Shown: positions 11,064 to 30,130 of the stretch, piece after piece
Position numbering within the stretch: the first letter of the stretch is position 1
Layout of the letters: each line of letters starts with the position of its first letter
NCBI GenBank assembly: GCA_026991755.1
Contig: JALXAX010000064.1
Span: 19,384 to 51,383, forward strand
Direction of reading: 5' to 3'
Source: Thiotrichaceae bacterium
GTDB lineage: Bacteria; Pseudomonadota; Gammaproteobacteria; Thiotrichales; Thiotrichaceae
DNA length: 32,000 bases
The notes under the pieces: model-generated
Database searches by the model: none
Told to the model about the DNA's origin: nothing
Seen by the model: only the letters and a program-made list of their open reading frames with translations
Made by a program: the position numbers and the translations under genes

Positions 11064-11177
11064 TTGGCAAGTACCTCACGGTATTGCAATTAAACTAAAG
11101 GTCAAAGTCACTAACTATACTGACTAGTAAAAAGTTGAGAATAGTTAAATTTAAGAACATTTTATAGGTTTAGAACA

Positions 11178-11558: not shown

Positions 11559-11604
11559 CGTTATACATACTTTTATTGTTAGTGGTAGTTAGTATACTAA
11601 CAAC

Positions 11605-11633
11605 AAAAAAGCCGACTATTAGTCGGCTTTTTT
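11605..11633. terminator. bidirectional rho-independent terminator
   Basis: AAAAAAGCCGACT-ATT-AGTCGGCTTTTTT: 7-bp GC-rich stem flanked by an A-run and a T-run. Serves rplQ (+) and the convergent minus-strand ORF, whose last codons lie in the stem. Confidence 0.85.
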
Positions 11634-12398: not shown

Positions 12399-12411
12399 GG
12401 ACGATTAGAGC

Positions 12412-13374
12412 ATGACCGAAGTACGCACAAACTGGGATATCACAGAAATCGAAGCGCTATTTGCACTGCCACTAAATGACCTTCTTTATAAGGCACATAC
12501 GATACACCGCGAAAACTTTACCCCTAATACTGTTCAAGTCAGTACTTTATTGAGCATCAAAACAGGTGCATGTCCTGAGGATTGCTCATACTGTTCGCAA
12601 AGTGCAAGAAATGATACCGGACTCGAACGTGAGAGATTACTTCCTATTGAAGAAGTGATCAGTGCAGCTCAAGAAGCAAAAAACAACGGTGCTACACGTT
12701 TTTGCATGGGAGCAGCATGGCGTAATCCAACGGATAAGAGCCTTGATCACGTGGTTGATATGGTAAGTGCTGTAAAAGCGCTTGGTATGGAAACATGCGT
12801 AACCTTAGGAATGTTGACCGAAAAGCAAACTGATAGACTAAAAACGGCAGGTCTGGACTACTATAATCACAACCTTGATACGTCACCTGAGTTCTACGGT
12901 GAGGTTATTACAACGAGAACCTATCAAGATCGTTTAGATACACTATCTTATGTCAGAGATTCAGGTATCAACGTTTGTTCGGGTGGAATACTAGGATTAG
13001 GTGAAACAGCAAGGGATCGTGCTCGCTTATTGCAAGAACTGGCAAATATGCCTAAGCACCCTGAGTCTGTACCGATAAACGAGCTTGTGCGCATTCCTGG
13101 AACACCGCTTGCAGATAATGAAGCGATAGATTCATTTGATTTTATACGTACCATCGCCGTTGCCAGAATTCTTATGCCTACTTCATATGTGAGGCTTTCC
13201 GCTGGGAGAACAGAAATGAGTGATGAAACACAAGCCATGTGTTTCTTTGCCGGCGCAAACTCCATGTTCTACGGTGATAAGCTATTAACCACAGATAACC
13301 CAGAGGAAAATGCAGATAACTTATTATTTGCTAAACTGGGTCTAGAGCCAGAAAGAGCCAATACCACAAACTAA
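12412..13374 (+). CDS. bioB: biotin synthase (radical SAM)
   Basis: [11 protein letters not shown] radical-SAM CxxxCxxC motif, [29 protein letters not shown]. Confidence 0.95.
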
Positions 13375-13407
13375 GCTTTTACCTAGTTAACCCCGAACTC
13401 ATCTATT

Positions 13408-15291
13408 ATGTTCTACTCAAAAAGTTATGATGTCATTGTGATAGGCGGCGGTCACGCAGGTACCGAAGCCGCGCTGGCCTCTGCGCGTATGGGCATGAAC
13501 ACACTCCTGCTAACACACAATATAGAAACCATTGGTCAAATGAGCTGTAACCCTGCCATAGGGGGGATTGGTAAGGGGCATCTAGTTAAAGAGATAGATG
13601 CACTAGGTGGAGCAATGGCACATGCTGCTGATAAAGGCGGAATCCAGTTCAGAACACTAAATTCTCGCAAAGGTCCAGCGGTTAGAGCAACGCGCGCTCA
13701 AGCTGATCGCAGTCGCTATAAAGCAGCCATTCGCAAAGCAGTAGAAAACGAATCAAATCTCGACTTATTTATGCAAGCCGTTGACGATCTCATTATTGAG
13801 AATGATGAAGTCAAAGGTGTAGTTACAGAGATGGGGCTAAAATTTAAAGCACATTCAGTGGTATTAACCGTTGGCACATTCCTTGCTGGTAAAATCCATA
13901 TAGGCGATAGCAATCAACGAGCAGGCAGAGCAGGCGATCCGCCCGCCAATGCGCTTGCGAAACGACTAAGAGAACTACCCTTCAGAGTAGACCGTTTAAA
14001 GACAGGTACACCTGCAAGACTCGATAGCAGAACCATCAACTACAGCGTTTTACAAGAACAGCCAGGCGATGAGCCACGGCCTGTATTCTCCTTTTTAGGG
14101 AGTGATGTAGATCATCCGCCTCAAATATCCTGCCATATCACCTATACCAATGAGAAAACTCACGAAATCATCCAACAAGGCATCCCCCGCTCACCCCTTT
14201 TTACTGGCGCGATTGAAGGAGTTGGTCCCCGTTATTGTCCTTCAATAGAAGATAAAGTCGTGCGTTTTGCAGAACGTGATAGTCATCAAATATTTGTCGA
14301 ACCAGAAGGTTTGGATAGCTACGAAGTGTACCCAAACGGGATCTCCACAAGCTTACCGTTTGATGTGCAAATAGATTTTATCCATTCTATTGTTGGTTTC
14401 GAGAATGCCCATATAACACGCCCAGGTTATGCTATCGAATATGATTATTTTGATCCGCGTGATCTTCGCGATACCCTAGAAACAAAATATATCAACGGCT
14501 TGTATTTCGCGGGTCAAATCAACGGCACAACAGGCTATGAAGAAGCGGCGGCTCAAGGTTTGCTAGCAGGAACAAACGCTGCACTTAGAGTGCAAGAAAA
14601 AGATAGTTGGTCGCCACTAAGAAGCGAAGCCTATATCGGTGTATTAGTTGATGACCTTACTACAAACGGAACAATAGAACCTTATAGAATGTTCACTAGC
14701 CGAGCAGAACACCGTTTACTACTTCGCGAAGACAACGCAGATTTGCGACTTACCGAAAAAGGTTATGCATTAGGCTTAGTAAGCGATAAACGCTGGGAAG
14801 CCTTCTGTAAAAAACGTGAAGCCATAGCGCTAGAAAAACAACGCATCAAAGAAACTTTCATCACGCCTGCTATGTTAAGCGAAACACAAACACACGCCTT
14901 GTTTGATGGCCCACTTAGTCGTGAATATCATCTCGACGAATTGTTGCGAAGACCTAATGTGACTTACGCTGACCTAATGACAATCGAAGGCATTGGCCCA
15001 GGCGTAGAAGACAAAAAAGTGGCCGAGCAAGTAGAAACCCAATTTAAGTACGCAGGTTACATAGAGCGCCAGCAAGACGAAGTTGCCAAACAATTGCGTA
15101 ACGAAAATACAAAACTGCCTGATGATATCGACTACAGCCAAGTACACGGCTTATCCAACGAAGCCCGTCAAAAATTTGAAGAAGCTAGGCCTGAAAGCAT
15201 CGGTAAAGCGTCACGAATTTCAGGTATCACACCTGCCGCTATTTCGTTATTGCTAGTCCATCTTAAAAAACGCAAACTCATTAATACATGA
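13408..15291 (+). CDS. mnmG: tRNA uridine-5-carboxymethylaminomethyl modification enzyme MnmG (GidA)
   Basis: [19 protein letters not shown] motif, [24 protein letters not shown], 627 aa. Confidence 0.97.
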
Positions 15292-15920
15292 TTAGCCTAG
15301 AAGCAGGACTCGAAGCACTTAACTGCTCAGTGAATGAAACCCAGATCAAGCAACTACAAGGTTACGTAGATATGCTGATGCGCTGGAACAAAGTTTATAA
15401 TCTAACAGCGATCACTGATGCTGATGATGTTTTGCGGTTACATATCTTTGATAGCTTAGCCGTTGCACCATTTATTGAAGGCCGCAGCTTTTTGGACGTA
15501 GGCAGTGGTGGAGGTTTACCTGGTATACCGCTGGCCATTTTAAACCCCGAAAGACAATTCACCTTACTTGATAAAGTGGGCAAAAAAAGCCGTTTTATGC
15601 GCCAAGCAGCGATTGAGCTAAAACTACCTAATGTCAGTGTTGAACAAACGCGTGTAGAAAGCTGGTCATCTGATATCGAATTTGATGCTATTATTAGCCG
15701 AGCATTTTCCTCAGTCGTCGACTTTGTATCGCTCACAGGAAAACACATGCACCCACAAGGTAGCTTATACGCCATGAAAGGCCGTTACCCCACTAATGAG
15801 TTAGCACAATTACCCCAACAATATCGCGTAGTGGCTGAGCGTAAATTACAGGTTCCTCAGTTAGATGCAGAACGTTACCTCATAGAAATAAAGCATACAG
15901 AGAATACACATAATGGCTAA
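15288..15920 (+). CDS. rsmG: 16S rRNA (guanine527-N7)-methyltransferase RsmG (GidB)
   Basis: [10 protein letters not shown]..., [19 protein letters not shown] motif. ATGA overlap with mnmG. Confidence 0.94.
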
Positions 15921-16701
15921 AGTCATCGCAATTGCCAATCAGAAAGGTGGAGTTGGCAAAACCACGACCAGCGTAAATCTTGCTGCATCGCTATCCGCAA
16001 TGAAGCGAAAAGTGCTTATTGTTGATATGGATCCTCAAGGCAATGCCACTACAGGTATGGGCATTGATAAGAATGAACAAGAATATTCATTGAGTGAAGC
16101 GTTGTTAAATCAGGTAAGTATTGATCAAGTTATCAAAACTGTTCCTGATACCAATATAGACATGCTTCCAGGTGGAGCAGATATGACCGTTGCTGAAATA
16201 ACCTTGATGAATGAAGACGATCGAGAATACCGCTTACGTGCTGTGCTTGAAAATATCAAAGGTAATTATGATTACATCGTTATCGACTGTCCTCCCTCAT
16301 TAAACATGCTAACGGTTAACGCATTAGTAGCGGCAGATGGCATCATGATTCCCATGCAGTGTGAATATTATGCGCTTGAAGGCTTATCGGCATTAATGGG
16401 ATCGGTTGAAACCATTCGTGAAAGTTCAAATCCAGATTTAGAAATCACGGGCTTATTGCGCACTATGTATGACCCTAGAAACAATCTAGCGCGTGACGTA
16501 TCCAGTCAACTTTCTGAATACTTTGGTGATAAGCTTTATAATACTTCGATCCCACGTAATGTACGTTTGGCAGAAGCACCTAGTCATGGGCTACCTGTAT
16601 TGTCTTACGATAAGCACTCGCGTGGAGCTTTAGCGTATTTAGCCATGGCAGCAGAAATGATTCGCAAAGATACAAGCCGAGTTGCGGAGCTATCTAACTA
16701 A
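15913..16701 (+). CDS. parA: chromosome partitioning ATPase ParA (Soj)
   Basis: IAIANQKGGVGKTTT deviant Walker A, DCPPSL, IPRNVRLAEAPSHG. Confidence 0.95.
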   Translation: MAKVIAIANQKGGVGKTTTSVNLAASLSAMKRKVLIVDMDPQGNATTGMGIDKNEQEYSLSEALLNQVSIDQVIKTVPDTNIDMLPGGADMTVAEITLMNEDDREYRLRAVLENIKGNYDYIVIDCPPSLNMLTVNALVAADGIMIPMQCEYYALEGLSALMGSVETIRESSNPDLEITGLLRTMYDPRNNLARDVSSQLSEYFGDKLYNTSIPRNVRLAEAPSHGLPVLSYDKHSRGALAYLAMAAEMIRKDTSRVAELSN

Positions 16702-16777
16702 GCTCTAACTAGGCTATCAAGCTAGAGAGCTTTAAATTATTTGATGCAGACAATAAAGAATAGAGAAGTGAAATAAT

Positions 16778-17638
16778 ATGGTCAGAAAACCAGGTTTAGG
16801 AAAAGGCTTAGATATCTTGCTCAGTTCTGCTAGTAAAGCCAAAAAAGCAGAAGAGAATAGTAACTCAGGTATGCGCTTGCTACCTGTCGATAAAATCGAA
16901 AAAGGACAATATCAACCTCGTTTAAGTATTGAGCCAGAAGCTCTGCAACAATTGGCTGATTCTATTAAAGCACAAGGCTTAATCCAGCCTGTAGTGGTGC
17001 GTCCTATTGGTGGTGGAAAGTTTGAGCTTATAGCCGGTGAACGTCGCTGGCGTGCTTGCCAAATCGCAGGTTTGTATGATATTCCCGCTGTTGTAAAAAA
17101 CATTCCTGATCAAGCTGCTGCAGCCATGTCGCTGATCGAAAACATTCAGCGTGAAGACCTAAACCCATTAGAAGAAGCCATAGCGATGGAACGCCTTATC
17201 GAAGAGTTTGGCTTAACACACCAACAAACTGCTGATTCAGTAGGTCGCTCACGTTCAGCTATCACCAACTTGTTGCGCCTATTAGTGCTTGAAGATAAAA
17301 CCAAGGCCTTGTTAGATAAAGGCGAGCTAGAAATGGGACATGCTCGTGCATTACTTGGCTTAGGAGGTTCTAAGCAGGTAGAAGCCGCAGAGAAAGTAGC
17401 CAACAGAGGCATGAGTGTTCGAGACACTGAACGATTAGTAAAAAAACTAGCTAATCCTGACGCAGGTAAGCAAGTTGAATCAAATAAAGCACCAGAAGTA
17501 CTAAAATTGGAACAACAGCTTAGTGAAAAGTTAGGCGCTAATATCCAGATTAAGTACAACAACAAAGGTAAAGGCAAGCTGACGATTGACTACAACAGCC
17601 TTGATGAGTTGGACGGTATTTTAGAACACATCAAGTAA
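16778..17638 (+). CDS. parB: chromosome partitioning protein ParB (Spo0J)
   Basis: GLGKGLD, QPRL, LIQPVVVRP, ELIAGERRWRA, ENIQREDLNP, HTH QQTADSVGRSRSAITN. Confidence 0.95.
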   Translation: MVRKPGLGKGLDILLSSASKAKKAEENSNSGMRLLPVDKIEKGQYQPRLSIEPEALQQLADSIKAQGLIQPVVVRPIGGGKFELIAGERRWRACQIAGLYDIPAVVKNIPDQAAAAMSLIENIQREDLNPLEEAIAMERLIEEFGLTHQQTADSVGRSRSAITNLLRLLVLEDKTKALLDKGELEMGHARALLGLGGSKQVEAAEKVANRGMSVRDTERLVKKLANPDAGKQVESNKAPEVLKLEQQLSEKLGANIQIKYNNKGKGKLTIDYNSLDELDGILEHIK

Positions 17639-17650
17639 TTAATGGCTAAG

Positions 17651-17833
17651 TTGAATTTAACCTGAATCAGTGATTTCACTACGGCATAGGGAATAAGATA
17701 TTGATTCATCACGGGTTTAAAAAATACCCGCTTAACGAAGGGTGAAGCTAAGATTTTTTAAAATCCCGTGCTAAACCAATCTCTTATCCCCTATTATCCG
17801 CATTGAAGTCACGGATTCAGGTTTAAATTTCAA
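17651..17833. repeat. 183-bp long imperfect palindrome (MITE-like or structured-RNA element) downstream of parB
   Basis: Left arm TTGAATTTAACCTGAATCAGTGA... pairs with right arm ...TCACGGATTCAGGTTTAAATTTCAA. Complementarity runs through about 80 nt per arm (ACGGGTTTAAAAAAT / ATTTTTTAAAATCCCGT near the centre). Confidence 0.7.
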
Positions 17834-17945
17834 GGTGTTTCTATTAATTCTGGTCGGAGTTGCTTAGCTGAGCTTTAGCAAATCTTAGAAGTTTCAGCAG
17901 ATTCTTCCTATAGAAGGGAGTTTTAAAAATGGAAACCAAGCCACT

Positions 17946-19088
17946 TTGCAAGAAATAAAGATACACCCCTCTATATCGGAAATCCCCCAAGAGCATTGGA
18001 ATCAGCTAATTGTTGATAACAATCCCTTCATCCGTCATGAATTCCTAAAAGCTCTCGAAGATCATCATTGTGTAGGCAAAAGCTTTGGTTGGCTACCACG
18101 ACATATCAGCATCTATGAAACCAATAAAGCGGGCAAAACTAGCCTAATCGCAGCCATGCCTCTCTATGAAAAATACAATTCTTACGGGGAGTTTGTATTT
18201 GATCACGCATGGGCAGATGCTTGGCAACGCGCAGGGCTTCAATATTTTCCTAAACTGGTCTCATCCGCCCCCTATACACCTGCACAAGGTCAGCGCCTGT
18301 TAGCAAAGCCGCAAGACTTAGAAAAAGTAGCATCGATGTTGTTACAAGTTGCCAAAGAAATAGCGAAACAAAATAACATGAGTGGCCTGCATGTTCTTTT
18401 CCCCAGTACGACAGAGCAGCAATGGTTAGAAAAGCAGGGTATGTTAGTTCGCCATGACTGTCAGTTTCATTGGCGTAATAATAGCTACCAGACTTTTGAT
18501 GACTTCCTTTCAGCACTAACCGCCAAGAAGCGTAAGAATATTCGTCAAGAAAGAAAGCGCGTACAACAAAGCGGAATAAAGCTCAGAGTACTAAGTGGTC
18601 ATACTGCCAACGAGCAAGATTGGGATGATATGGCGAGGTTTTATCAAAGTACTTTTGATGAAAAGTGGGGTACAGCTACTTTAAATGCAGCTTTTTTCAA
18701 ACAGGTAGCCCAGAAGATGCCTGATCAGATTGTACTGGTATTAGCAGATAAAGATGAACAATGCGTGGCAGGATCCTTAATGTATCGAAGTGATACCACG
18801 TTATACGGTCGCTATTGGGGCTGTGATGAGGAAATAGACAAGTTGCATTTTGAAGCCTGTTATTATCAGGGAATAGAATACTGTATTGAACATGGTTTAA
18901 CGTTATTTGAGCCTGGTGCACAAGGCGAACATAAGATAGCCAGAGGCTTCTTGCCGACATTAACCCAATCCAGTCATTGGTTAGTGGAGAACCCTTTTCA
19001 AGACAGCATTAAGCGTTATACCGAGCATGAGCAAGTTGCTGTAACTGAATATATCGAAAGCTGTAATCAGCATAACCCGTATAAGTAG
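17946..19088 (+). CDS. DUF482 / FemAB-like GNAT-fold protein
   Basis: 380-aa ORF with TTG start. I..IPQEHWNQL...NPFIRHEFLKALE, NSYGEFVFDHAWADAW and YFPKL...PYTP recall the PF04339-type family. Assigned from memory, not searched. Confidence 0.6.
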   Translation: MQEIKIHPSISEIPQEHWNQLIVDNNPFIRHEFLKALEDHHCVGKSFGWLPRHISIYETNKAGKTSLIAAMPLYEKYNSYGEFVFDHAWADAWQRAGLQYFPKLVSSAPYTPAQGQRLLAKPQDLEKVASMLLQVAKEIAKQNNMSGLHVLFPSTTEQQWLEKQGMLVRHDCQFHWRNNSYQTFDDFLSALTAKKRKNIRQERKRVQQSGIKLRVLSGHTANEQDWDDMARFYQSTFDEKWGTATLNAAFFKQVAQKMPDQIVLVLADKDEQCVAGSLMYRSDTTLYGRYWGCDEEIDKLHFEACYYQGIEYCIEHGLTLFEPGAQGEHKIARGFLPTLTQSSHWLVENPFQDSIKRYTEHEQVAVTEYIESCNQHNPYK

Positions 19089-19111
19089 CACTAATTTAAT
19101 AAGGCAAATAA

Positions 19112-19714
19112 ATGAAACCCTTCTCAGAATCGTGCGTACAAAATCGTGAACCTATATTTAACATCATTCAGCCTTTATTTGAAAACAGCAAAAATCTCTT
19201 AGAGATAGGCAGTGGCACGGGTCAACATGCGGTTTATTTTGCCAAAGAAATGCCTCATTTAAGTTGGCAAACTAGTGATCTGGAAGAAAACCATGAAGGC
19301 ATCAACCAATGGTTGAATGAAGCTCAACTAAGTAATATAAAGCCACCCGTATCATTAGCGGCTTGTGATCAACTGGCATGGACAAGCTTAGATGGCCCTG
19401 GTAAGTACGATGCTATATTTTCTGCTAATGCTGTACATATCATGGGCAAAGAAGATGTGCAGTGTTTGATAAAGAACATCGGTACAGTGATAGCTCAGAA
19501 CGGGCTTTTTGTTTTATACGGTCCGTTTAATTATGACGGAAAATTCACCAGTGAGAGCAATGCACGCTTTGACATCTGGTTAAAAGATCGAAATCCAGAA
19601 AGTGGAATACGTGATTTTGAATGGCTTGATGAGTTGGCTAATCAAGCAGGAATGACGTTTCAACAGGACTACAAAATGCCTGCAAATAATCGCATTCTGG
19701 TATGGCGAAAATAG
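19112..19714 (+). CDS. DUF938 family class I SAM-dependent methyltransferase
   Basis: NREPIFNII..., LEIGSGTGQHAVYFA, LYGPFNYDGKFTSESNARFD, GIRDFEWL and MPANNRILVW are hallmark DUF938 motifs. Confidence 0.8.
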   Translation: MKPFSESCVQNREPIFNIIQPLFENSKNLLEIGSGTGQHAVYFAKEMPHLSWQTSDLEENHEGINQWLNEAQLSNIKPPVSLAACDQLAWTSLDGPGKYDAIFSANAVHIMGKEDVQCLIKNIGTVIAQNGLFVLYGPFNYDGKFTSESNARFDIWLKDRNPESGIRDFEWLDELANQAGMTFQQDYKMPANNRILVWRK

Positions 19715-19736
19715 TCATTTCATAACAATTACTTAT

Positions 19737-20336
19737 CTAGGCGATTTCCTTATGCTCTCTGCAAATTAGCCTTATATCTTCAATAGAAAGAGGCTTTTTG
19801 ACGAGTGTACAAAAATAGCCATCAGTACGCTTCTCGTTGTGGTAGCAGCTGTGGCAAGCCCCAAAACTTTTCATCTTGTTGGATTTCATAATTGCTACGA
19901 GCAATTGCTTTAGCGCATTATCAATCTCTGTTTGTGCCTTATTGGTGAGTGACTTACAGCCATTGGTAAACAGTGGTGTTGGAATAAGTGCCTTCAATAA
20001 AGCCAAACCATCATCGGTAATTTTGAGGTGTGTCAGACGCTTATCATTATCATCGGGTTGTTTTCTTAGATAGCCTTTTTTTTCCAGCACCTTCAAGGTT
20101 TGCGAAACCGTTCCCTTGGTTTGACCCAAATATTCAGTAACCGCCATCGGTGTGTCTGAAAAACGATTACAGAGTGACAAGTAATGCAATGCCTCTAGCT
20201 GGATAGGCTGTAACCCATATTCGGAACCTTTGCCTCTTGCATCAGTGCGCAATAAGTTGCTAAGGCGTTCTAGTGTGTCGTAGATGGAATGAGATTTCAT
20301 ATTGCATATAGTATCGACTAAAAACATTCTTGACAA
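19737..20336 (-). CDS. MarR-family transcriptional regulator with C-terminal 4-Cys extension
   Basis: Winged-helix core LQPIQLEALHYLS...TEYLGQTKGTVSQTLKVLEKKGYLRKQPDDNDKRLTHLKITDDG. Tail is CHSCYHNEKRTDGYFC...LICREH. Start is ambiguous (TTG 20336, ATG 20327 or ATG 20300). Confidence 0.8.
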   Translation of the reverse strand: MSRMFLVDTICNMKSHSIYDTLERLSNLLRTDARGKGSEYGLQPIQLEALHYLSLCNRFSDTPMAVTEYLGQTKGTVSQTLKVLEKKGYLRKQPDDNDKRLTHLKITDDGLALLKALIPTPLFTNGCKSLTNKAQTEIDNALKQLLVAIMKSNKMKSFGACHSCYHNEKRTDGYFCTLVKKPLSIEDIRLICREHKEIA

Positions 20337-20380
20337 GTCGGCAAATGTTCCTCATGATAATTAAGGTATCGATTCGATAC
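20330..20380 (+). promoter_or_regulatory. candidate promoter plus palindromic MarR-type operator for the downstream secreted-protein gene
   Basis: TTGACA (20330-35), then a -10-like CATGAT/GATAAT (20353-61). Perfect 7-1-7 palindrome GTATCGA-T-TCGATAC at 20366-80. A GTATCGA half-site recurs at 20311-17. Confidence 0.45.
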
Positions 20381-20404
20381 ATTTAATTTATTACATAGGA
20401 AACA

Positions 20405-21448
20405 ATGATGATAGCGAAGCTAAAAACAAAACAATCAATTTCTACTCTTAGTACCCTAGTTATACTAAGTACACTTTCATTTCCTCTATCAGCGCACCAA
20501 CATGATAAGCATAAAGCAGGAATAGCCTCTCAAGAGGATGAAAAGGTAATTGCTCCTTTTGATATTGTGCATACAAAAATAACAACAGAAGGTAATGTGG
20601 CCACATTCCATATGGCTGTATCGGGTAAATCGGGGGAGAATAAGCCGACTGCAACGGGTAAATTGGCGGGAAGTAACGTTTTTTCTTATGTCTGGCCAAC
20701 TACTCTGGATAGCTACGATGTAGGTTTTGAGAAAAAAGCAGGAATATTAGCACTAGTACTCCAGCAACTTAGGTTTGATGGATACAGAGCAATCCAAAGC
20801 GCTCAAGACAAGGCATGGGTTGCAGGCAATGGTTGTTCCCTTGGCAAGACCCATAACGCAGTATTGAGCGCTTTGGGTTGCTCCCTTCGGGCGAGCCAGG
20901 AAGCGGTCATCCGCGTTGTTGCGCCTTTTGTGAAGGGAACAACCATTCCCTGCAAGACGCGCCTAGCGGCTAACCGCTTCCTGACTCGCTGTATTCATCA
21001 AACCTAACTTGTTGGAGTACTAGCAGTAACTGCACACCCTGATTTTGATGACACACCGTTGTTCGATGAAAATGGTGATAACAATACAGATAACGATGGT
21101 AATGTATGGCATAGCCATTGGGTAGTTTTACAGCCTAACAAGAGATGTGGCAAAGATGCTTTAGGCGTGGTCGATATTCCAAAAGGTAGTAAACCAAGAT
21201 TACCCAAAACATGGCCAGGCTTGCCAATTCTTCTGGATAGCCCAGGCTGGAATCCCACATTTGCTAAAGATACCGTTGAAGTGCGAGTTCCTTTTGAGAA
21301 TATTGGAGCCGTTAAATCAATGAGTTTTGATGGCGTTACAGCAGGTTTACGCGTTAATCAGAGTGTACATGCTCCATTGCTATGCGTTGTTAACGTGATG
21401 GATATAGCTTCGGGTGATCTGAGCTTGTCAGGTAAAGTGGATCAATAA
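20405..21448 (+). pseudogene. secreted protein of unknown function, interrupted in frame by a 263-bp inverted-repeat element
   Basis: N-terminal signal peptide (KLKTKQSISTLSTLVILSTLSFPLSA). ORFs 20405..21007 and 21059..21448 share one frame. Removing 267 nt restores ...AGILALAVTAHPDFDDTPLFDENGD... as a 258-aa ORF. Confidence 0.75.
20757..21019. mobile_element. 263-bp non-autonomous TIR element (MITE-like), CTAG-flanked
   Basis: 31-nt terminal inverted repeats match 28/31 (TACTCCAGCAACTTAGGTTTGATGGATACAG vs rc TACTCCAACAAGTTAGGTTTGATGAATACAG). CTAG on both sides (20753-56, 21020-23). No transposase ORF. Core is about 57% GC by hand count. Confidence 0.75.
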
Positions 21449-21702: not shown

Positions 21703-22392
21703 CTAGATAGACACAATACGTCGCAACTCTGCAGGGTTATTTAATACAAGGTGAGTATTGTGTATCTCCAATAAACCTTGCTGAGAAAGGCCTTTTAGTG
21801 TGCGAGAGAAGGTTTCTGGGGTGATTGAAATACGCGAGGCAATAACATTTTTAGGGAGCGAGAGATTAATTTCAATCGGTGTTTCTCTCTCCTCAGGAAT
21901 ACCTTCCAGTAAATAGCTAATCAGTCGATAACTTGCGTTGTGCAGGCTTAAGCGATCCAGCTCTGTCATTAGCCAATGTATGCGTACACTAAGTGCTGCC
22001 ATTACTTTAAAACAAACTTCGGGTGAATGTTGTAAGGTTTTAATATAGGTTTCTGCATTGATCCGTAAGACAACAGAATCAGATAAAGCTTCTGCGTTAA
22101 CAGGATAACCTGGTATGCCTCGAAAAATGATGGCTTCGGCAAAGGTATTTCCTTGATGAATAATATCGACGACTTTCTCAGCACCCTCAAAAGACAATAA
22201 ACTCAGTTTGACTTTGCCACTGATCAGGAAAAAAAAGTCAGTAGCAGGCTGCTGTTGTTGGAATAACATTTCATCGGAGGTTAACTCACATAATGTGGTG
22301 TGTGTGACAACTTGAAGGAAATCCTCTTCAGTTAGGTCCTTGAACAAAGGGTTCTTCCTCATTATCTCCTGATATTTGATATCAACTCGCAT
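21703..22392 (-). CDS. dnr: Crp/Fnr-family regulator, Dnr/NnrR-like (no N-terminal Cys cluster)
   Basis: cNMP-binding-like beta-roll (FLISGKVKLSLLSFEGAEKVV) and C-terminal HTH VIASRISITPETFSRTLKGL with the E--SR recognition motif. Lacks FNR-type Cys residues. Located next to norCB. Confidence 0.8.
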   Translation of the reverse strand: MRVDIKYQEIMRKNPLFKDLTEEDFLQVVTHTTLCELTSDEMLFQQQQPATDFFFLISGKVKLSLLSFEGAEKVVDIIHQGNTFAEAIIFRGIPGYPVNAEALSDSVVLRINAETYIKTLQHSPEVCFKVMAALSVRIHWLMTELDRLSLHNASYRLISYLLEGIPEERETPIEINLSLPKNVIASRISITPETFSRTLKGLSQQGLLEIHNTHLVLNNPAELRRIVSI

Positions 22393-22566
22393 TATGTCCC
22401 CTTGTTAGTCTGTCTATTTTCATTTAAATCACGCTTTTAACTCCTTTAGGAATCTTTGAATAAGTCGGTGGAATTTCTCGAAGCTGAAATTGTTCAGTTT
22501 TTGCATCGAGAAAACCGTTCGTGACTTGTTCAGAGGTTCCTTTATGGAGGCTGGTCAAATCTAATC

Positions 22567-22608
22567 TTGACGAACATCAAGGACGTTGTCTACTGCAAAG
22601 ACTAGAGT
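22567..22608 (+). promoter_or_regulatory. FNR/Dnr box plus -10 for norCB (class II geometry)
   Basis: TTGAC-GAAC-ATCAA (22567-80; consensus TTGAT-N4-ATCAA), then 22 nt, then TAGAGT (22603-08), about 38 nt before the norC ATG. Confidence 0.7.
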
Positions 22609-22645
22609 GCATGTTCACAATAACATTTAATCAGTGAGGAATGCT

Positions 22646-23083
22646 ATGAGAGAAACCTTTACTAAGGGCATGGCTCGAAATATTTACTATGGTGGTGGTG
22701 TTTTCTTCTTCCTAGTATTAATCGGTCTTACGGTCGATACCGTTGTCAGCCTACCTAAAACAGATAATTCTGAGAATCTAACCGAACAAGTCGCTGCTGG
22801 AAAGCGCTTATGGGAACGTAATGATTGCATTGGTTGCCATACGTTACTAGGGGAGGGGGCTTATTTTGCGCCTGAGCTTGGAAATGTATATACCCGTTTC
22901 GGAGAAAGTACCGAAGCTATCAAGGGCTTTATCAAAAGTCGGCCAAAAAATGGTATTCCTAACCGTCGCAGCATGCCTCAGTTCAACTTTACTGATGAAG
23001 AATTAGAAGCACTTGCGCAATTCCTGAAATACTCGGATGGCATTAAAACTGCCAGAGACTGGCCACCCAATATACAAGGTTAG
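22646..23083 (+). CDS. norC: nitric oxide reductase subunit C (monohaem c)
   Basis: TM anchor IYYGGGVFFFLVLIGL and CIGCH haem-c motif followed by LLGEGAYFAPEL. ATG 22646 is preferred over the track's GTG 22634 because GAGGA lies 5 nt upstream. Confidence 0.92.
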   Translation: MRETFTKGMARNIYYGGGVFFFLVLIGLTVDTVVSLPKTDNSENLTEQVAAGKRLWERNDCIGCHTLLGEGAYFAPELGNVYTRFGESTEAIKGFIKSRPKNGIPNRRSMPQFNFTDEELEALAQFLKYSDGIKTARDWPPNIQG

Positions 23084-23109
23084 AGGGGCGTTTTTGGTTG
23101 CTTTTATAA

Positions 23110-24558
<1,449 letters not shown>

Positions 24559-24680
24559 CTAACACTAGAAAGCACAAAGAGAATGACAATGTAGTCGGAC
24601 AGCGCAATTGCTTCCGACTACCCCAAGTTATTAACCTCACTATCAACTTTTTGGAGTAGCAAAAGTAAACATCAAGGATT

Positions 24681-24727
24681 ATCCTCTCTCCTCTTCCTCC
24701 TACCTATATGGAGGGAGGATTTTTTTA
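24681..24727 (+). terminator. rho-independent terminator downstream of norB
   Basis: Pyrimidine-rich arm (ATCCTCTCTCC / TCTTCCTCC) pairs with GGAGGGAGGAT, followed by a T7 run (24720-26). Confidence 0.65.
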
Positions 24728-24743
24728 CAGACAAAAAAATCTC

Positions 24744-25112
24744 ATGAGATCAACTAATAAAATACCGCTACAACGTGCATCAAACGCAGCACTCGCTTCG
24801 TTATTGAATCTTACTTTGTTGCCTGTCTTAGGCTTTGCGTATTTGATCTTTACCTTCAAGAAAACAGATCCGGACGGTATAGATCGTTATCACACGATTC
24901 TGGGTATAAAGATTAATATTATTGCTGCCACAGTGTTGTTAGTAGTCAGTGGTTTAATGATTTTTTTTGGAGGCTTCGATTCGCCCTGGACATGGGTTTA
25001 TGTTATTTCCTATTTCACCATCGTACATACGGTCTTTATTGTATTTGCAATATGGGCGCTGGTTCGCGCATGGTCAGGTGAGAAGTTACGTAGTAGTTTT
25101 ACAAAAACATGA
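24744..25112 (+). CDS. small integral membrane protein (about 3 TM helices)
   Basis: ORF track starts at 24708, but that ATG lies inside the terminator stem, so ATG 24744 (MRSTNKIPLQ...) is preferred. Hydrophobic segments LLNLTLLPVLGFAYLIFTF, IIAATVLLVVSGLMIFFGG and VYVISYFTIVHTVFIVFAIWALV. Confidence 0.55.
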   Translation: MRSTNKIPLQRASNAALASLLNLTLLPVLGFAYLIFTFKKTDPDGIDRYHTILGIKINIIAATVLLVVSGLMIFFGGFDSPWTWVYVISYFTIVHTVFIVFAIWALVRAWSGEKLRSSFTKT

Positions 25113-25130
25113 AATATTCTTTATTACCGC

Positions 25131-25544
25131 ATGATCTCCCGTATGAATAGTACAAAAGCGATTATTGCTGGCATCATATTTATCATCGTTGCGACCCTTT
25201 TAATACAGCTTGCCTATCTATTTGTAGCGGTGGGCTATAATTCCCTTGAAAAAGATTACCCCTTCTTAAAAGAAATCAGCGGAATCTTCAGATACCTCGT
25301 AGCAATTCCTGTCTTCATAGGCGTCATGTTTGTTGGTGGGTATATAACTGCTGCAATTGCTAAAAGCAAGACGTTAAGCCGCACTCTAATGCATTGCATG
25401 GTAGTGGGTGTAGTGACTATAGGGGGAACTATGTGGCTTGCCTTAGAAAATGCAAATCTAACTTTAACAGGAATTATTGTAAATACATTAATGATGCTTG
25501 CAACCATTACAGGTGGACTGTGGTTTAGAAAAACCGCCAACTGA
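25131..25544 (+). CDS. integral membrane protein (4 predicted TM helices), unknown function
   Basis: 137-aa ORF with four hydrophobic stretches (AIIAGIIFIIVATLLIQLAYLFVAV, YLVAIPVFIGVMFVGGYITAAIA, HCMVVGVVTIGGTMWLAL, GIIVNTLMMLATITGGLW). Confidence 0.6.
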   Translation: MISRMNSTKAIIAGIIFIIVATLLIQLAYLFVAVGYNSLEKDYPFLKEISGIFRYLVAIPVFIGVMFVGGYITAAIAKSKTLSRTLMHCMVVGVVTIGGTMWLALENANLTLTGIIVNTLMMLATITGGLWFRKTAN

Positions 25545-25694
25545 TAATTTCTGTTTGCTAACAAAATAAGGCTTAATGTGCATAGCTGGTAAGCCAATCG
25601 GTGTTCTAGTCAGATTGAAGTAGTTTATAAAAGCGCTTTTTGAACTTAAGCAGGTGTATTTTGCTAAATACAGGGAGTCTTTGCGCGAAAAGAT

Positions 25695-25859
25695 ATGACG
25701 AATAAAAGTGGCTTGACGACTATTCCCTTTTTAGCGGAAATAATAAAGGGAATTACGCTTTTCTCTCTCTCCCCATTCTTTAGTGAAAAAGCTTACCTGG
25801 AAAATTTGGAATATCTCGCAGTGCTAGTAGCTATTTACAGCTTCATTGTCGTTGACTAG
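25695..25859 (+). CDS. candidate 54-aa small ORF (copy 1 of a duplicated module)
   Basis: Hand-translated: MTNKSGLTTIPFLAEIIKGITLFSLSPFFSEKAYLENLEYLAVLVAIYSFIVVD*. Its leader and N-terminus recur at 26161-26184. Weak SD. Absent from the track (under 60 aa). Confidence 0.25.
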   Translation: MTNKSGLTTIPFLAEIIKGITLFSLSPFFSEKAYLENLEYLAVLVAIYSFIVVD

Positions 25860-26175
25860 CTAGTGCTTCATAGCAACTTCTAATATCTTCTAGTTGTTAA
25901 TAACGTATAACTTTCTACATATTATTTAAGCGTGAAGTAGTTAAAGCCTTGCTTCTAAGTCCCATATGCTCTTTCGTGCCCTTCGACTCCGCTTGGGGTT
26001 GCGAAGCATAATCTACTCCTTGTGGAGTTGAGGGTGTGGTGAATAATAAATAGTAGATAGGGTTTAAAAAAAACCACAAAGAACAATGAGTACGCTGAAA
26101 CCCGTTGTGACTTGGAGAGGTATCAATTAGGTTTCAATGTCCTTTGTGGTTAAAAGAGACCTTTGCCCGAAAGAT

Positions 26176-26388
26176 ATGACGGATTTAGCGTAATTTTCTC
26201 TATTTTTGCTAAAAAAGAGGGTAATAGCCAAGCTATTGGCCGAATTTTTAGCAGAAATAGAGGGAATTCAAGCCATTTTTAGTGAGCTTGCCGTTTTATC
26301 AAAACGGTCAACTCAATTATTAAGCTTGCTCATTTTTCTATCGCCATCCTTTCATGCAAAGGCCTCTAAAAGATTAACTATTGTTTAG
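26176..26388 (+). pseudogene. diverged second copy of the small-ORF module with in-frame TAA at codon 6
   Basis: ATG ACG GAT TTA GCG TAA, then the same frame continues as the track ORF 26206..26388. FLAEIEGIQAIFS and LSPSFHAKA parallel FLAEIIKGITLFS and LSPFFSEKA of copy 1. The 3' end overlaps the nirT stop region. Confidence 0.2.
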
Positions 26389-28201
26389 TTGCATTTACCT
26401 CTACCTGATCATTATCAAAGCCTAGTTTGTAACCTAGTGATACATGGTGGTATCGTCCATTGGTGTGATCATCATGGATGGCAAAGCCAAAGTTATACAC
26501 TTTATCCATTTTCATACTGACATCACCAGCCTTGTCTGATTTCAACTTTCGTGTGAGCTCCACAACCCAGGTATCACCATTAAGTGATGCGGTAAAACCA
26601 GTGCCTTGTCCGCCTTCCATAGAACGCTCAGCAAGAATATGTCCATCTTCACTTTCATTTTTACCCAACTTGAAGCGAATAATATCCATATAGTGACCTG
26701 CACTCATTTCAGTTGCTATTTCATCATCTGTTTTGCGTTTGTCCCAGCCACCTCGTTTTTTACCACGACGGCCTTTAACCTCAATCTTGGTACGACTTTC
26801 ACCAATATATTTAGTCACTTTAGTATCTGCAGGTGCATGAGGCATTCCATTTGCATCGTGGTGGCAAGTTCCCCAACAGCCTGCTTGTTTGGCATATTGA
26901 ACGTCGTCTGTAGCAAACATAATGGCTAATTTAACAGGGTTGTCAGCATCCATTTTTCCACCGTCTACAAAAGGCACGGGCGTATGTTCAGTATTCTCCC
27001 ATTCGAATCGCATATACAAGTTGTCATTATCATGGCTAGCTTGAACGATAACGGGGATACTGCCACGTTTACCAGGTATCAATGTTTCTTGAGGTTCTAG
27101 CTTTTCACCGGTCACAATTTTTTCACCCATCTTAGCGGTTTCTTTATCGTGACAATTGAAGCACCGATCTCCCAACTTTACAAAGGGACGCGCACCACCG
27201 TGGTCTTTACCCGTGAGCATCCATTCCATAGAAGCTTGTCCTGGGTAAAATAGGGTGATTTCTCTACTGGGAACAGTGCCCCAGTTAATGTTGCTTGAAG
27301 GGGGGGTAGTTGAAGGAGTAGCAGTGGGAGTTACTTCACTGGTACTAGAGCTAGGGGTTGCTGATAAAGGCTCTGAAGCAACCGAGGGTGCAGCTACAAC
27401 AGCAGTTGCCAATGCAGCTTTTACCGCTTTATCAATACGCTCTTGAGTTGCGATTTCGGCATTCTTTTTCTTTTCTCTTAATTTGGCTTTTTCTTTAGCC
27501 GCTTTTTCTTCAGCCTCTTTCTCTTGCTGTGCAACCTGTTTCATACCGTCTAGATACATTTTTGGGACTTCACGTATGAAGGCAGGGTTGGGTTTTTCCA
27601 ATTCCTCAAGCTCTTCATCAGTGAGTTGATCACGAATATTTTTATGAGCAATCCCTTTATGACAATCAATACAGGTCTGTCCTGTTTCAAAGGCATTTAA
27701 ATGCTGTTTACGAGCGCGAGGTTTTTGAAAGACAGGGTTCATGGATTCAAAGTTATGGCAGTTACGGCATTCACGTGAATCCGTTTCCTTCATGGATTTC
27801 CATACATGTTTTGCTAGAGTAAGGCGCTTTTGGTTGAATTTTTCAGGCGTATCAATAGTACCTAGTACCTTATGCAAAACCTCGTTACTAGCTTGCACCT
27901 TACGGACCATTTTGTGAATCCAGGGTTTGGGTACATGGCAATCAGAACAGGTAGCTCGTACACCGCTTCGGTTAGAATGGTGAATACTGGGTTTGTATTC
28001 CTGATAGACGTTTTCTTCCATTTCATGACAAGAAGTACAGAACTCCAGGGTGTTAGTGGCTTCCATGGCTGTATTGAATCCACCCCAGAAAATAACGCCC
28101 AGCATGAAAAATAATAGTGCAGCACTCATCGTGATGTTTTTTGTAACTCGACGTGAGAAAAAGCCGAACTTTTTAGTGGTTGCGGAGGTGTTAGTTGCCA
28201 T
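26378..28201 (-). CDS. nirT: NapC/NirT-family tetrahaem cytochrome c fused to a C-terminal NirB / EB_dh-like haem domain
   Basis: N-terminal TM anchor plus four CxxCH (CTSCH, CSDCH, CRNCH, CIDCH) in NirT spacing. Residues about 215-305 form a Lys/Glu-rich then Ala/Ser/Thr/Pro-rich linker. The C-terminal ~300 aa carry CFNCH and CWGTCH (CX3CH). GGAGA SD lies 7 nt upstream. Directly downstream of nirS. Confidence 0.85.
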   Translation of the reverse strand: MATNTSATTKKFGFFSRRVTKNITMSAALLFFMLGVIFWGGFNTAMEATNTLEFCTSCHEMEENVYQEYKPSIHHSNRSGVRATCSDCHVPKPWIHKMVRKVQASNEVLHKVLGTIDTPEKFNQKRLTLAKHVWKSMKETDSRECRNCHNFESMNPVFQKPRARKQHLNAFETGQTCIDCHKGIAHKNIRDQLTDEELEELEKPNPAFIREVPKMYLDGMKQVAQQEKEAEEKAAKEKAKLREKKKNAEIATQERIDKAVKAALATAVVAAPSVASEPLSATPSSSTSEVTPTATPSTTPPSSNINWGTVPSREITLFYPGQASMEWMLTGKDHGGARPFVKLGDRCFNCHDKETAKMGEKIVTGEKLEPQETLIPGKRGSIPVIVQASHDNDNLYMRFEWENTEHTPVPFVDGGKMDADNPVKLAIMFATDDVQYAKQAGCWGTCHHDANGMPHAPADTKVTKYIGESRTKIEVKGRRGKKRGGWDKRKTDDEIATEMSAGHYMDIIRFKLGKNESEDGHILAERSMEGGQGTGFTASLNGDTWVVELTRKLKSDKAGDVSMKMDKVYNFGFAIHDDHTNGRYHHVSLGYKLGFDNDQVEVNATKQ

Positions 28202-28303
28202 GAATAGATCTCCTCAAAGCGGTTTATGAAATAACGGTTAGCGCTGTTTAGCGCTTTGCCGTTACTTTAGAAACAACTCTTCTGTATGTCTTACACTTAA
28301 AGT

Positions 28304-28374
28304 GTGGGTGCAGAATAAAGACTAATCTGCACCCACGGTTATATCTGGAACACGGAGCTGTGTGTTTCAGATAT
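28304..28374 (-). terminator. two intercistronic stem-loops between nirS and nirT (attenuator or mRNA-stabiliser candidates)
   Basis: GTGGGTGCAGA-(11 nt)-TCTGCACCCAC (28304-36) and ATATCTGGAACAC-(8 nt)-GTGTTTCAGATAT (28341-74, 12/13). Neither has a clean U-tract. Confidence 0.4.
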
Positions 28375-28384
28375 TGGTGTGGCG

Positions 28385-30028: not shown

Positions 30029-30130
30029 TATTAATCTCCTGTACGTAGAAAGCATTGTTGAAACTCGCCTGTCAGTTAGGATTGAGAGTCAAGGATGGAC
30101 GATCATTCGGCAGACGGGCGACTTTAATTA

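What the first reader, a model, noticed from the sequence alone, without database searches (positions are those of the whole stretch)
20753..21023. 263-bp TIR/CTAG-flanked element splits a secreted-protein gene; the empty site reconstructs a clean 258-aa ORF
ORFs 20405..21007 and 21059..21448 lie in the same reading frame. The segment between them, 20757-21019, has 31-nt terminal inverted repeats matching 28/31. CTAG sits on both sides (20753-56 and 21020-23). Deleting the element plus one CTAG removes 267 nt (89 codons). This joins ...KKAGILA to LAVTAHPDFDDTPLFDENGD... with no stop and gives a signal-peptide protein of 258 aa. The 80-aa tail of the first ORF (QQLRFDGYR...IHQT*) is read-through into the element, ending at TAA 21005-07. 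A 4-bp YTAR/CTAG duplication is the known IS5-family target behaviour, so this looks like a recent non-autonomous insertion. The target gene sits directly behind a MarR operator. The length is an exact multiple of 3 and the junction is clean, so RNA-level removal (an intron-like element) is also worth excluding.
Basis: partly seen in the sequence, partly recalled or inferred. Interest (0 to 1): 0.7.

Follow-up and report, generated by a model that had tools for sequence, protein, structure and literature searches.

The report
IS630-type MITE splitting a secreted-protein gene
A small transposase-less mobile element (MITE), apparently moved by Tc1/mariner-IS630-type transposases, has jumped into a CTAG site and knocked out a conserved secreted-protein gene of a sulfur-bacterium relative; this is an ordinary event, though the element has an unusually well-conserved Y-shaped fold.

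Summary
A 263-bp element (20757-21019) with 31-nt inverted termini and CTAG on both sides splits one gene. Three independent assemblies about 97% identical to the window carry the uninterrupted gene with a single CTAG. More than 5,000 homologues lack the insert.

The element is a MITE. Seven more full-length or near-full-length copies (84-96% identical) sit at unrelated sites in Thiotrichaceae and Methylococcales MAGs and vent metagenomes. There are also deletion derivatives and 29-nt "solo" hairpins.

The IS5 attribution is not supported. At imperfect targets the flanks read GTAG...CTAC, TTAG...CTAG and CTAG...CTAA. This fits a TA duplication around an element G-TACTCC...GGAGTA-C, as in IS630/Tc1-mariner. 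A 1.23-kb two-ORF IS630-family element from the same kinds of samples is flanked by CTAG|TAC...GTA|CTAG in 7 of 7 copies. In one contig it abuts a MITE copy. No exact autonomous partner was found.

Nothing supports an intron. The multiple-of-three length is a coincidence.

The unusual feature is the fold: a TIR stem plus two ~97-nt hairpins, kept by compensatory changes (22 of 103 pairs in 8 copies). Its function is unknown.

Verdict: a new member of a known kind, of modest interest.

The parts
20405..20756 (+). 5' part of the disrupted gene (codons 1-117 of a 258-codon secreted-looking protein of unknown function). In the window it reads on into the element and stops at TAA 21005-21007.
   Evidence: ORF list. 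Reconstruction. Intact allele P0001 is 99% identical over its full length.
20753..20756 (.). Left CTAG. The target TA (20754-20755) is one copy of the duplication, and G20756 is best read as the first base of the element.
   Evidence: Empty-site alleles have a single CTAG. Flank table of 15 units plus L049.
20756..21020 (+). The MITE itself: 265 bp under the TA-duplication reading (G-TACTCC...GGAGTA-C), or 263 bp (20757-21019) if CTAG is counted as the duplication.
   Evidence: Insertion boundaries from alignment with L002-L004. Seven further full or near-full copies at unrelated sites.
20757..20787 (+). Left terminal inverted repeat. Its outer 11 nt (TACTCCAGCAA) are imperfectly complementary to its inner part (TTGATGGA-TA), so the terminus is itself a small hairpin.
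   Evidence: The consensus 29-nt solo units show the perfect 11-bp stem.
20787..20883 (+). Internal hairpin 1 (stem arms 20787-20809 and 20861-20883, plus inner helices). The apical region carries the conserved motif TTGCAGGCAATGGTTGTTCCCTTGGCAA.
   Evidence: Inverted repeat I3. Consensus fold and pair counts.
20884..20890 (+). Short linker (CCTTCGG) at the centre of the element, between the two hairpins.
   Evidence: Unpaired in the MFE and consensus folds.
20891..20989 (+). Internal hairpin 2 (stem arms 20891-20914 and 20966-20989, plus inner helices). Its apical motif is the reverse complement of the one in hairpin 1 (20928-20964 against 20811-20847, 81%). It holds most of the compensatory changes.
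   Evidence: Inverted repeats I4 and I2. Pair counts.
20989..21019 (-). Right terminal inverted repeat.
21020..21023 (.). Right CTAG. C21020 is best read as the last base of the element, and TA 21021-21022 as the second copy of the duplicated target.
21024..21448 (+). 3' part of the disrupted gene, in the same frame as the 5' part. The listed ORF from TTG 21059 is only the mechanical remainder.
19737..20336 (-). Divergently transcribed MarR-family regulator gene. This is context, not part of the element.
   Evidence: Pfam MarR_2, E = 5.5e-13. The same gene order occurs in the empty-site contigs.

Best explanation
The segment is a non-autonomous DNA transposon (MITE) of the IS630/Tc1-mariner type.

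It carries no gene. It has about 31-nt inverted termini that a transposase supplied in trans would bind. It was cut and pasted into the TA of a CTAG inside codons 117-118 of a conserved secreted-looking protein gene, and the TA was duplicated. Because the element begins with G and ends with C, a CTAG is rebuilt on each side.

The insertion truncates the protein after 117 native residues, adds an 80-residue nonsense tail, and separates the C-terminal 140 codons from their start and signal peptide. The gene is therefore inactivated in this strain, while closely related strains keep it intact.

**Shown:** the insertion and the empty site, multiple copies at unrelated sites, the flank pattern, IS630-family elements in related samples with the same junctions, and the conserved fold.

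**Inferred:** that an IS630-family transposase moves it, that the gene is non-functional, and that the 29-nt solo hairpins are deletion remnants formed between the 11-nt direct repeats that the hairpin-shaped termini create.
For: **Empty site**
- Three assemblies at 96.6-98% nucleotide identity read GCA-CTAG-CAG where the window has CTAG + 263 bp + CTAG.
- The intact 257-aa protein P0001 is 99% identical. All sampled homologues among 5,546 read AGILALAVT(A/S)HPDFDDTPL straight through.

**Mobility**
- Full-length copies in L008, L024, L033, L035, L049 and L050, and a near-full copy in L051, are 84-96% identical with unrelated flanks.
- One reading frame alone gave 27 distinct called peptides from element copies in the protein database.
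- L050 comes from the same metagenome as the empty allele L002.

**TA duplication rather than a 4-bp duplication**
- The inner flank base is G in 15/15 units and C in 14/15.
- Imperfect targets give GTAG...CTAC, TTAG...CTAG and CTAG...CTAA.

**Family link**
- A 1,228-1,232-bp element has an HTH_32 ORF and a DDE_3 ORF. Its N-terminal fragment hits NCBIfam IS630 transposase at E = 8e-11.
- It has CTAG|TAC...GTA|CTAG junctions in 7/7 independent copies.
- In L035 it directly abuts a MITE copy and shares one CTAG with it.
- Terminus similarity to that IS type has a nominal p of 0.0005-0.008.

**Literature**
- IS630 inserts at the TA in 5'-CTAG-3' (Tenzen & Ohtsubo, cited in PMC2170065).
- The RUP MITE is attributed to IS630-Spn1 (PMC2229807).

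**No coding or RNA-family signal**
-.
Against: - No autonomous element with termini identical to the MITE (TACTCCAnCAAnTTAGGTTTGATG) was found. The IS630-family elements recovered share only CTAG|TAC plus a shifted ATCAAC...TTAG similarity, and that statistic is uncorrected for 30 comparisons.
- No transposase lies next to any lone terminus examined.
- The TA-duplication argument rests on three imperfect-target copies. Each could in principle be explained by one or two point mutations.
- Cut-and-paste DDE transposition does not require the two internal hairpins, yet these are maintained by compensatory changes. The model leaves that unexplained.
- Only 32 kb of the source genome is visible, so copy number and the presence of a partner in this genome are unknown.
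Confidence: 0.8

Rival explanations
1. IS5-family MITE: a DDE_Tnp_1-type transposase makes a 4-bp staggered cut at CTAG/YTAR and duplicates all four bases, so the element is exactly 263 bp.
For: The window copy alone fits equally well, because CTAG is a palindrome. IS5-type MITEs that duplicate CTAG or YTAA exist, for example MITEPsy1 (PMC3189936).
Against: Imperfect-target copies are not 4-bp direct repeats: GTAG...CTAC, TTAG...CTAG and CTAG...CTAA. The base adjoining the element is invariant, as expected if it belongs to the element. The only related autonomous elements found are IS630-family. The termini do not resemble IS5-type ends such as the GGAAGGT... of MITEPsy1.
Confidence: 0.08
2. 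A hairpin-dependent, single-strand element similar to REP/REPIN-RAYT or IS200/IS605. The 29-nt CTAG-bracketed hairpin would be the basic unit. The 263-bp element would be two inverted units plus cargo, moved as folded single-stranded DNA by a Y1/HUH enzyme that cuts at CTAG.
For: Each terminus is itself a hairpin, and free-standing 29-nt units occur in several taxa with covarying stems (L028 TGGTCCA/TGGACCA, L009). The whole fold is kept by compensatory changes, which suggests the single-stranded form matters. There are more G.T than A.C cells on one strand, 32 against 11.
Against: The ends are symmetric and the flank pattern indicates a TA duplication, whereas IS200/IS605-type elements make no duplication and have unlike ends (established knowledge). 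No Y1 transposase was seen in any fetched locus. In L050 the two termini co-vary with each other, but the hairpin within each terminus is lost. Solo units are simply explained as deletions between the 11-nt direct repeats, like the 'nearly precise excision' remnants of Tn10 (Ross et al. 1979 and Foster et al. 1981, listed). The G.T excess is biased because the fold was predicted on that strand.
Confidence: 0.07
3. An intron-like element removed at the RNA level, so that the gene still yields the full 258-aa protein.
For: The inserted length (267 nt) is a multiple of three, the junction is clean, and the RNA would be very highly structured.
Against: No group I or group II intron or any other Rfam family reaches threshold. 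Only sub-threshold microRNA-like hairpin matches appear. Copies lie mostly just outside genes, abutting stop codons. Copy L024 is 264 bp. Presence or absence is a DNA polymorphism with a target duplication. A 1-in-3 chance explains the frame.
Confidence: 0.02

Closest known systems
RUP (repeat unit of pneumococcus), the MITE attributed to IS630-Spn1
   Same: A small, gene-less element with inverted termini that inserts at TA. It is thought to be moved in trans by an IS630-family transposase and tends to land next to or in other IS elements (PMC2229807). Here too a copy abuts an IS630-family element and copies cluster.
   Different: RUP is 107 bp and folds as a single stem-loop. This element is 263-265 bp with a three-way (Y-shaped) fold, about 31-nt termini that are themselves hairpins, and a strong CTAG preference. 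RUP's termini closely match its IS, whereas here the match to the IS found is only partial.
IS630 of Shigella sonnei / ISY100 (IS630-Tc1-mariner superfamily)
   Same: Target TA, preferentially within 5'-CTAG-3', with TA duplication. About 24-30 bp of each end suffices for transposition (PMC2170065 and the Tenzen references in it). The 1.23-kb relatives found here have HTH and DDE_3 ORFs and CTAG on both sides in 7/7 copies.
   Different: Those are autonomous and encode their own transposase. The element in the window encodes nothing and depends on a partner that was not identified exactly.
Correia/NEMIS elements of Neisseria
   Same: MITEs with about 24-26-bp inverted termini and TA at the ends. 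They are often at gene boundaries, and their transcripts form long stem-loops that can affect neighbouring mRNAs (PMC2229807).
   Different: They are 107-155 bp and form a single stem-loop, in a different host group, with no CTAG preference reported in the text read. No RNA-level effect has been tested for the present element.
CIR repeats of Caulobacter/Brucella
   Same: Their predicted structure has two long hairpin arms joined by a linker, conserved across species (PMC2229807). This resembles the two internal arms here.
   Different: CIRs lack terminal inverted repeats and a clear target duplication, and have not been found inside genes. This element has both features and sits inside a gene.
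MITEPsy1 (IS5-family-derived MITE of Pseudomonas syringae)
   Same: A small MITE found flanked by CTAG (PMC3189936).
   Different: MITEPsy1 duplicates four bases (CTAG or YTAA) and its ends match ISPsy2 (IS5 family). Here the flanks at imperfect targets indicate a 2-bp TA duplication, and the related IS elements are IS630-family.

Membership tests
Bacterial MITE (non-autonomous DNA transposon) | Small size and no coding capacity | tested here: met
   The element is 263-265 bp. All six frames lack a credible gene. Variable sites fall 25/35/34 over codon positions 1, 2 and 3 in the one long open frame.
Bacterial MITE (non-autonomous DNA transposon) | Terminal inverted repeats | tested here: met
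   28/31 matching (32/35 with the CTAG). Conserved in all copies, and co-varying in L050.
Bacterial MITE (non-autonomous DNA transposon) | Target-site duplication shown against an empty site | tested here: met
   L002, L003 and L004 carry one CTAG where the window has two around the element.
Bacterial MITE (non-autonomous DNA transposon) | Multiple copies at unrelated loci | tested here: met
   Eight full or near-full copies with unrelated flanks, plus truncated, 80-nt and 29-nt derivatives. 27 peptide clusters derive from copies.
Bacterial MITE (non-autonomous DNA transposon) | An autonomous element with matching termini | tested here: inconclusive
   IS630-family elements share the target, CTAG|TAC and a partial terminus similarity (nominal p 0.0005-0.008), but their termini are not identical.
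IS630/Tc1-mariner-derived element | Duplication of a TA dinucleotide | tested here: met
   Flanks are GTAG...CTAC, TTAG...CTAG and CTAG...CTAA at imperfect targets, with an invariant element-proximal G and C. This rests on three informative copies.
IS630/Tc1-mariner-derived element | Preference for TA within CTAG (a trait of IS630 proper) | tested here: met
   11 of 16 complete units tabulated have CTAG on both sides. CTAG is not unusually common or rare in the window: 92 observed against about 99 expected.
IS630/Tc1-mariner-derived element | Binding and mobilisation by an IS630-family DDE transposase | not testable with these tools
   Needs a binding assay (EMSA) or a transposition assay. Only co-occurrence and adjacency (L035) were observed.
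IS5-family-derived MITE | 4-bp direct target duplication (CTAG/YTAR) | tested here: not met
   The imperfect-target copies are not direct 4-bp repeats.
IS5-family-derived MITE | Termini matching an IS5-family element | not tested
   No IS5-family element was specifically sought. None with these termini appeared in the loci fetched through the terminus scans.
Group I / group II intron or IStron | Match to the intron RNA models (conserved catalytic core) | tested here: not met
   No match at gathering thresholds in the window. With permissive thresholds only weak microRNA-like hairpin hits appear.
Group I / group II intron or IStron | Removal from the transcript | not testable with these tools
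   Requires RT-PCR or RNA-seq.
REP/REPIN-RAYT or IS200/IS605-type single-strand elements | No target duplication, unlike ends, and an associated Y1/HUH transposase | tested here: not met
   The ends are symmetric and a TA duplication is inferred. No Y1 transposase appears in the ORFs inspected around copies. Complete genomes were not available to search.
Rickettsia-type palindromic elements translated in frame (RPE-like) | Inserted in frame without stops and retained as part of the protein | tested here: not met
   The read-through hits TAA at 21005-07. Lengths of 263 and 264 bp both occur. There is no codon-position signature.

The most novel reading that the evidence does not exclude
The Y-shaped fold is not a by-product but a functional part of the element. 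On this reading the folded single strand (DNA during replication, or the transcript) is what is recognised for mobilisation, or what protects or terminates neighbouring mRNAs. The 29-nt CTAG-bracketed hairpins would then be a self-propagating REP-like family derived from the termini. That would make this a hybrid between a Tc1/mariner-type MITE and a hairpin-dependent repeat.
Probability: 0.12. Interest if true: 0.55.

Novelty: new member of a known kind. Interest (0 to 1): 0.3.

Why it matters
For this genome, the two adjacent ORFs should be annotated as one gene disrupted by a mobile element. The strain probably lacks a protein that is very widely conserved: more than 5,000 homologues at 70% identity or above, with no assigned family, sitting beside MarR- and Crp/Fnr-type regulators and respiratory cytochrome genes.

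More generally, it documents a previously undescribed MITE family in Thiotrichaceae and Methylococcales of vent and sediment communities. It also gives a clean filled-versus-empty pair for it. It shows how to tell a TA duplication from a CTAG duplication when the target is a palindrome.

The compensatory maintenance of a three-way fold, and the solo hairpins, are a small but testable lead on whether MITE secondary structure is selected.

Tried and rejected
1. **Rfam** over the whole window and permissively over 20600-21200 gave nothing meaningful.
2. **Parent element next to lone termini** in L005, L009, L011, L014, L016, L023 and L031 turned up only ordinary genes. Most "lone termini" proved to be complete 29-nt units.
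3. **Exact autonomous partner.** I sampled three clades of the IS630-family relatives (L036-type, L046, L047). All target CTAG and begin with TAC, but none has the MITE's terminus.
4. **Strand preference.** There are 32 G.T against 11 A.C cells, but the fold was predicted on that strand. Orientation relative to the upstream gene is co-directional in 4 of 5 copies, which is not significant. No claim is made.
5. **Coding potential** of the long open frame was rejected.
6. **Function of the disrupted protein.** No Pfam, NCBIfam or PDB sequence match. The AlphaFold model had a mean pLDDT of 40, so no fold search was run on it.
7. **Pair counting.** My first pair-count script used a garbled structure string and was redone. 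A sloppy fuzzy search for IS ends was redone exactly.
8. **Contig break.** L001 ends inside the element. I considered this as evidence of high copy number, but the break falls in a hairpin arm, so the palindrome could have caused it.

Full report
**1.

- Two ORFs, 20405..21007 and 21059..21448, lie in one frame.
- Between them lies a segment whose ends form a 35-nt inverted repeat at 91% (20753-20787 with 20989-21023). This is 28/31 if the flanking CTAGs are left out.
- CTAG sits at 20753-56 and 21020-23.
- Deleting 267 nt gives a continuous 258-codon ORF.

The signal is not chance. A 25-nt terminus probe matches only these two places in 32 kb, with none expected. The segment folds 13-15 standard deviations better than shuffles. 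It has about 56% GC in a 40-44% background.

**2. The empty site exists.**

The reconstructed protein finds 5,546 homologues. The best, P0001, has 257 aa, is 99% identical, covers the full length, and comes from a MAG labelled Thiothrix sp..

P0001 is encoded on three independent assemblies (L002, L003, L004) with the same gene order as the window: ParAB, a FemAB-like gene, DUF938, MarR, this gene, Crp/Fnr, cytochrome c, COX1-like. These are 96.6-98% identical to the window in DNA. They read ...TTAGCA-CTAG-CAGTAAC..., and their alignment to the window stops at 20756 and resumes at 21016. All homologues inspected read AGILALAVT(A/S)HPDFDDTPL straight through the junction.

So this is a DNA insertion into an otherwise intact gene. 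A second assembly, L001, is 100% identical to window 9112-20870 and carries the left part of the element. Its contig ends inside a hairpin arm.

**3. It is a mobile family.**

A scan of one genome per species with the terminus core gave 28 loci. About 18 have a genuine terminus, nearly all in Thiotrichaceae (Thiothrix, Cocleimonas, Leucothrix) and Methylococcales MAGs. A metagenome scan added three loci.

Full-length copies occur in L008, L024, L033 and L035 at 88-96% identity. L049, L050 and L051 (the last cut by a contig end) were reached through peptides that gene callers had predicted across copies. There were 27 such peptide clusters from a single frame. Flanks are unrelated beyond the CTAG.

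L050 comes from the very metagenome that holds the empty allele L002.

Derivatives also exist:
- an 80-nt version (L022);
- truncated copies (L011, L016, L023);
- many 29-nt units, CTAG|TACTCCAnCAAnTTAGGTTTGATGGAGTA|CTAG.

Many copies abut a stop codon, which is natural because CTAG contains TAG on both strands.

**4. Which transposon family?**

CTAG is a palindrome, so the window copy cannot tell a 4-bp duplication (IS5-like) from a TA duplication around an element that starts with G and ends with C (IS630-like). Copies at imperfect targets can.
- L015 has GTAG...CTAC.
- L034 has TTAG...CTAG.
- L049 has CTAG...CTAA.

The base touching the element is G in 15/15 units on the left and C in 14/15 on the right. 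This is what a TA duplication at targets GTAC, TTAG and CTAA predicts. A 4-bp direct repeat does not predict it.

Independently, in L035 the CTAG that ends a MITE copy is followed at once by TACATCAACCAGTT... and an ORF whose fragment hits the NCBIfam IS630-transposase model (E = 8e-11, below the full-length cut-off because only 124 aa are on the contig) and Pfam HTH_32. Its relatives are 153-aa first ORFs of a 1,228-1,232-bp element with a second, DDE_3 ORF. The two ORFs are separated at an A-run. Seven independent copies of three subtypes all have CTAG|TAC...GTA|CTAG junctions.

IS630 is the classical element that inserts at the TA of 5'-CTAG-3' (Tenzen & Ohtsubo 1990/1991, as cited in PMC2170065). 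The pneumococcal MITE RUP is attributed to an IS630-family transposase (PMC2229807).

Beyond the shared TAC, the MITE terminus aligns with the L036/L035-type IS terminus with a 3-nt shift (TCCATCAAC-TTAG against TACATCAACCAGCTTAG). The nominal p is 0.0005-0.008 against shuffles, uncorrected for 30 comparisons. I therefore assign the element to the IS630/Tc1-mariner type with good but not complete confidence. No exact autonomous partner was found.

**5. Anatomy beyond the termini.**

The element folds as a three-way junction: a terminal stem of about 31 bp and two internal hairpins (20787-20883 and 20891-20989) joined by CCTTCGG. The apical parts of the two hairpins carry the same roughly 28-nt motif in opposite orientation and are almost invariant. 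The stems below them vary.

| Alignment | Cells paired | Pairs with change on both sides | Controls |
|---|---|---|---|
| 5 copies | 95.4% | 13 of 105 | 6.2 +/- 1.5 in 500 shuffles (none reached 13); 0-1 when partners are slid |
| 8 copies | not computed | 22 of 103 | not computed |

Part of this comes from the termini of L050, which changed together on both ends. Most of the rest lies within hairpin 2.

A cut-and-paste DDE mechanism does not need these hairpins. So either the folded single strand (DNA or RNA) matters to the element, or the arms of each palindrome are homogenised by repair. I cannot separate these. According to the review, bacterial MITEs usually form one stem-loop, and only CIR repeats have two arms. 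A stem plus two arms is therefore an unusual shape but not a new kind of element.

**6. The 29-nt units.**

Each terminus is itself a hairpin, with outer TACTCCAnCAA complementary to inner TTGATGGAGTA. A full element therefore carries 11-nt direct repeats near its two ends. Deletion between them leaves exactly the observed 29-nt unit between the two CTAGs.

This parallels the transposase-independent 'nearly precise excision' of Tn10 between short direct repeats within its inverted ends (Ross et al. 1979 and Foster et al. 1981, references listed; the mechanism is from my own knowledge). I regard this as the likelier origin.

Units with covarying stems occur in more distant taxa (L028, L009), and a solo lies directly beside a full copy in L051. 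Independent spread is therefore not excluded.

**7. The alternatives.**
- **Intron-like removal:** there is no RNA-family support. Copies are mostly extragenic. The 264-bp copy L024 shows that the multiple of three is incidental. The open frame shows no coding signature.
- **Local duplication or a chance palindrome:** excluded by the empty site and by the dispersed copies.

**8. Consequence.**

In this strain the protein is cut after residue 117 and acquires 80 element-encoded residues. The remaining 140 codons lack a start and a signal peptide. The gene is very probably dead, although otherwise unblemished, so the insertion is young relative to the divergence from the 97%-identical relatives.

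The protein has no Pfam, NCBIfam or PDB match, and my structure model was too poor to use. Its many invariant His and Cys residues, and its neighbours, suggest a redox or metal-related periplasmic role. The neighbours are MarR- and Crp/Fnr-type regulators, a small cytochrome c, a COX1-family protein and a NapC/NirT-family cytochrome. That role is speculation.

**9. Verdict.**

This is a correct and well-described observation. The intron idea has no support. It is a new member of a known kind, and the conserved Y-shaped fold and the solo hairpins are a modest open question.

Noticed in passing
L031 1157-1193, L021 2401-2437, L025 4044-4080, L027 1338-1374, L006 120-156, L015 3373-3409, L028 4994-5030, L034 7937-7973, L051 2582-2618: Free-standing 29-nt hairpin units (11-bp stem, 7-nt loop) identical to one terminus of the element and bracketed by CTAG. 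L028 (a Woeseiaceae MAG) has a doubly compensated stem, TGGTCCA...TGGACCA. They are probably deletion remnants between the 11-nt direct repeats of a full element, but independent spread is not excluded.
   Followed up: partly
L051 2481-2856: A cluster of elements: a fragment of hairpin 2 in inverted orientation (2481-2540), then a solo unit, then a full copy that shares one CTAG with the solo. The CTAGs rebuilt by each insertion seem to act as hot spots for the next.
   Followed up: partly
L035 3029-3760; L036-L040 2915-4142; L046 2411-3642; L047 1914-3145: A 1,228-1,232-bp IS630-family insertion sequence with two ORFs (153-aa HTH_32 and 206-aa DDE_3) split at an A-run, about 13-bp inverted termini starting with TAC, and CTAG on both sides in 7/7 copies. 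I did not check whether it already has a name in ISfinder.
   Followed up: partly
L050 2517-2779: One copy has a different terminus core on BOTH ends (TACTCCAAYCACGTTATATTGACG instead of TACTCCANCAANTTAGGTTTGATG), while the interior is conserved. This suggests adaptation to a different transposase, or exchange of the ends.
   Followed up: no
window 20405-21448 (reconstructed); P0001: The disrupted protein belongs to a very large family (5,546 hits, 70-83% identity across Gammaproteobacteria and some Alphaproteobacteria) with no Pfam, NCBIfam or PDB match. It has many invariant His and Cys residues (for example H121, H146, H148, C158, H232, C237). One source calls a homologue 'Peptidase'.
   Followed up: partly
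window 20366-20380 (and 20311-20320): A perfect palindrome GTATCGA-T-TCGATAC lies between the best promoter-like site (20330-20358) and the start codon of the disrupted gene. A GTATCGA half-site sits upstream. This is a plausible operator for the divergent MarR-family regulator. The terminator scan flags it only because of the following T-rich run.
   Followed up: no
window 20870 (end of contig L001): An independent assembly identical to the window stops 114 nt into the element, inside a hairpin arm. This is an example of how such palindromic MITEs break short-read assemblies and go under-counted in MAGs. Several other termini (L007, L016) also sit at contig ends.
   Followed up: no
window 17657-17911 and about 22500: Against the 97%-identical relatives L002 and L003, the window differs by a non-aligning stretch between the ParB gene and the FemAB-like gene (L002 has a 68-aa ORF there). 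L002 also has about 55 extra bases upstream of the cytochrome c gene. These are other small indel polymorphisms in the same neighbourhood.
   Followed up: no
window 21703-30055: The neighbourhood encodes a Crp/Fnr-family regulator, a small cytochrome c, a 458-aa COX1-family protein (an arrangement like nitric-oxide reductase NorCB, which is my inference), a NapC/NirT-family multihaem cytochrome fused to a longer protein, and another cytochrome-c-containing protein. Another MITE copy (L049) lies between nirS-like and nirD/L-like genes.
   Followed up: no
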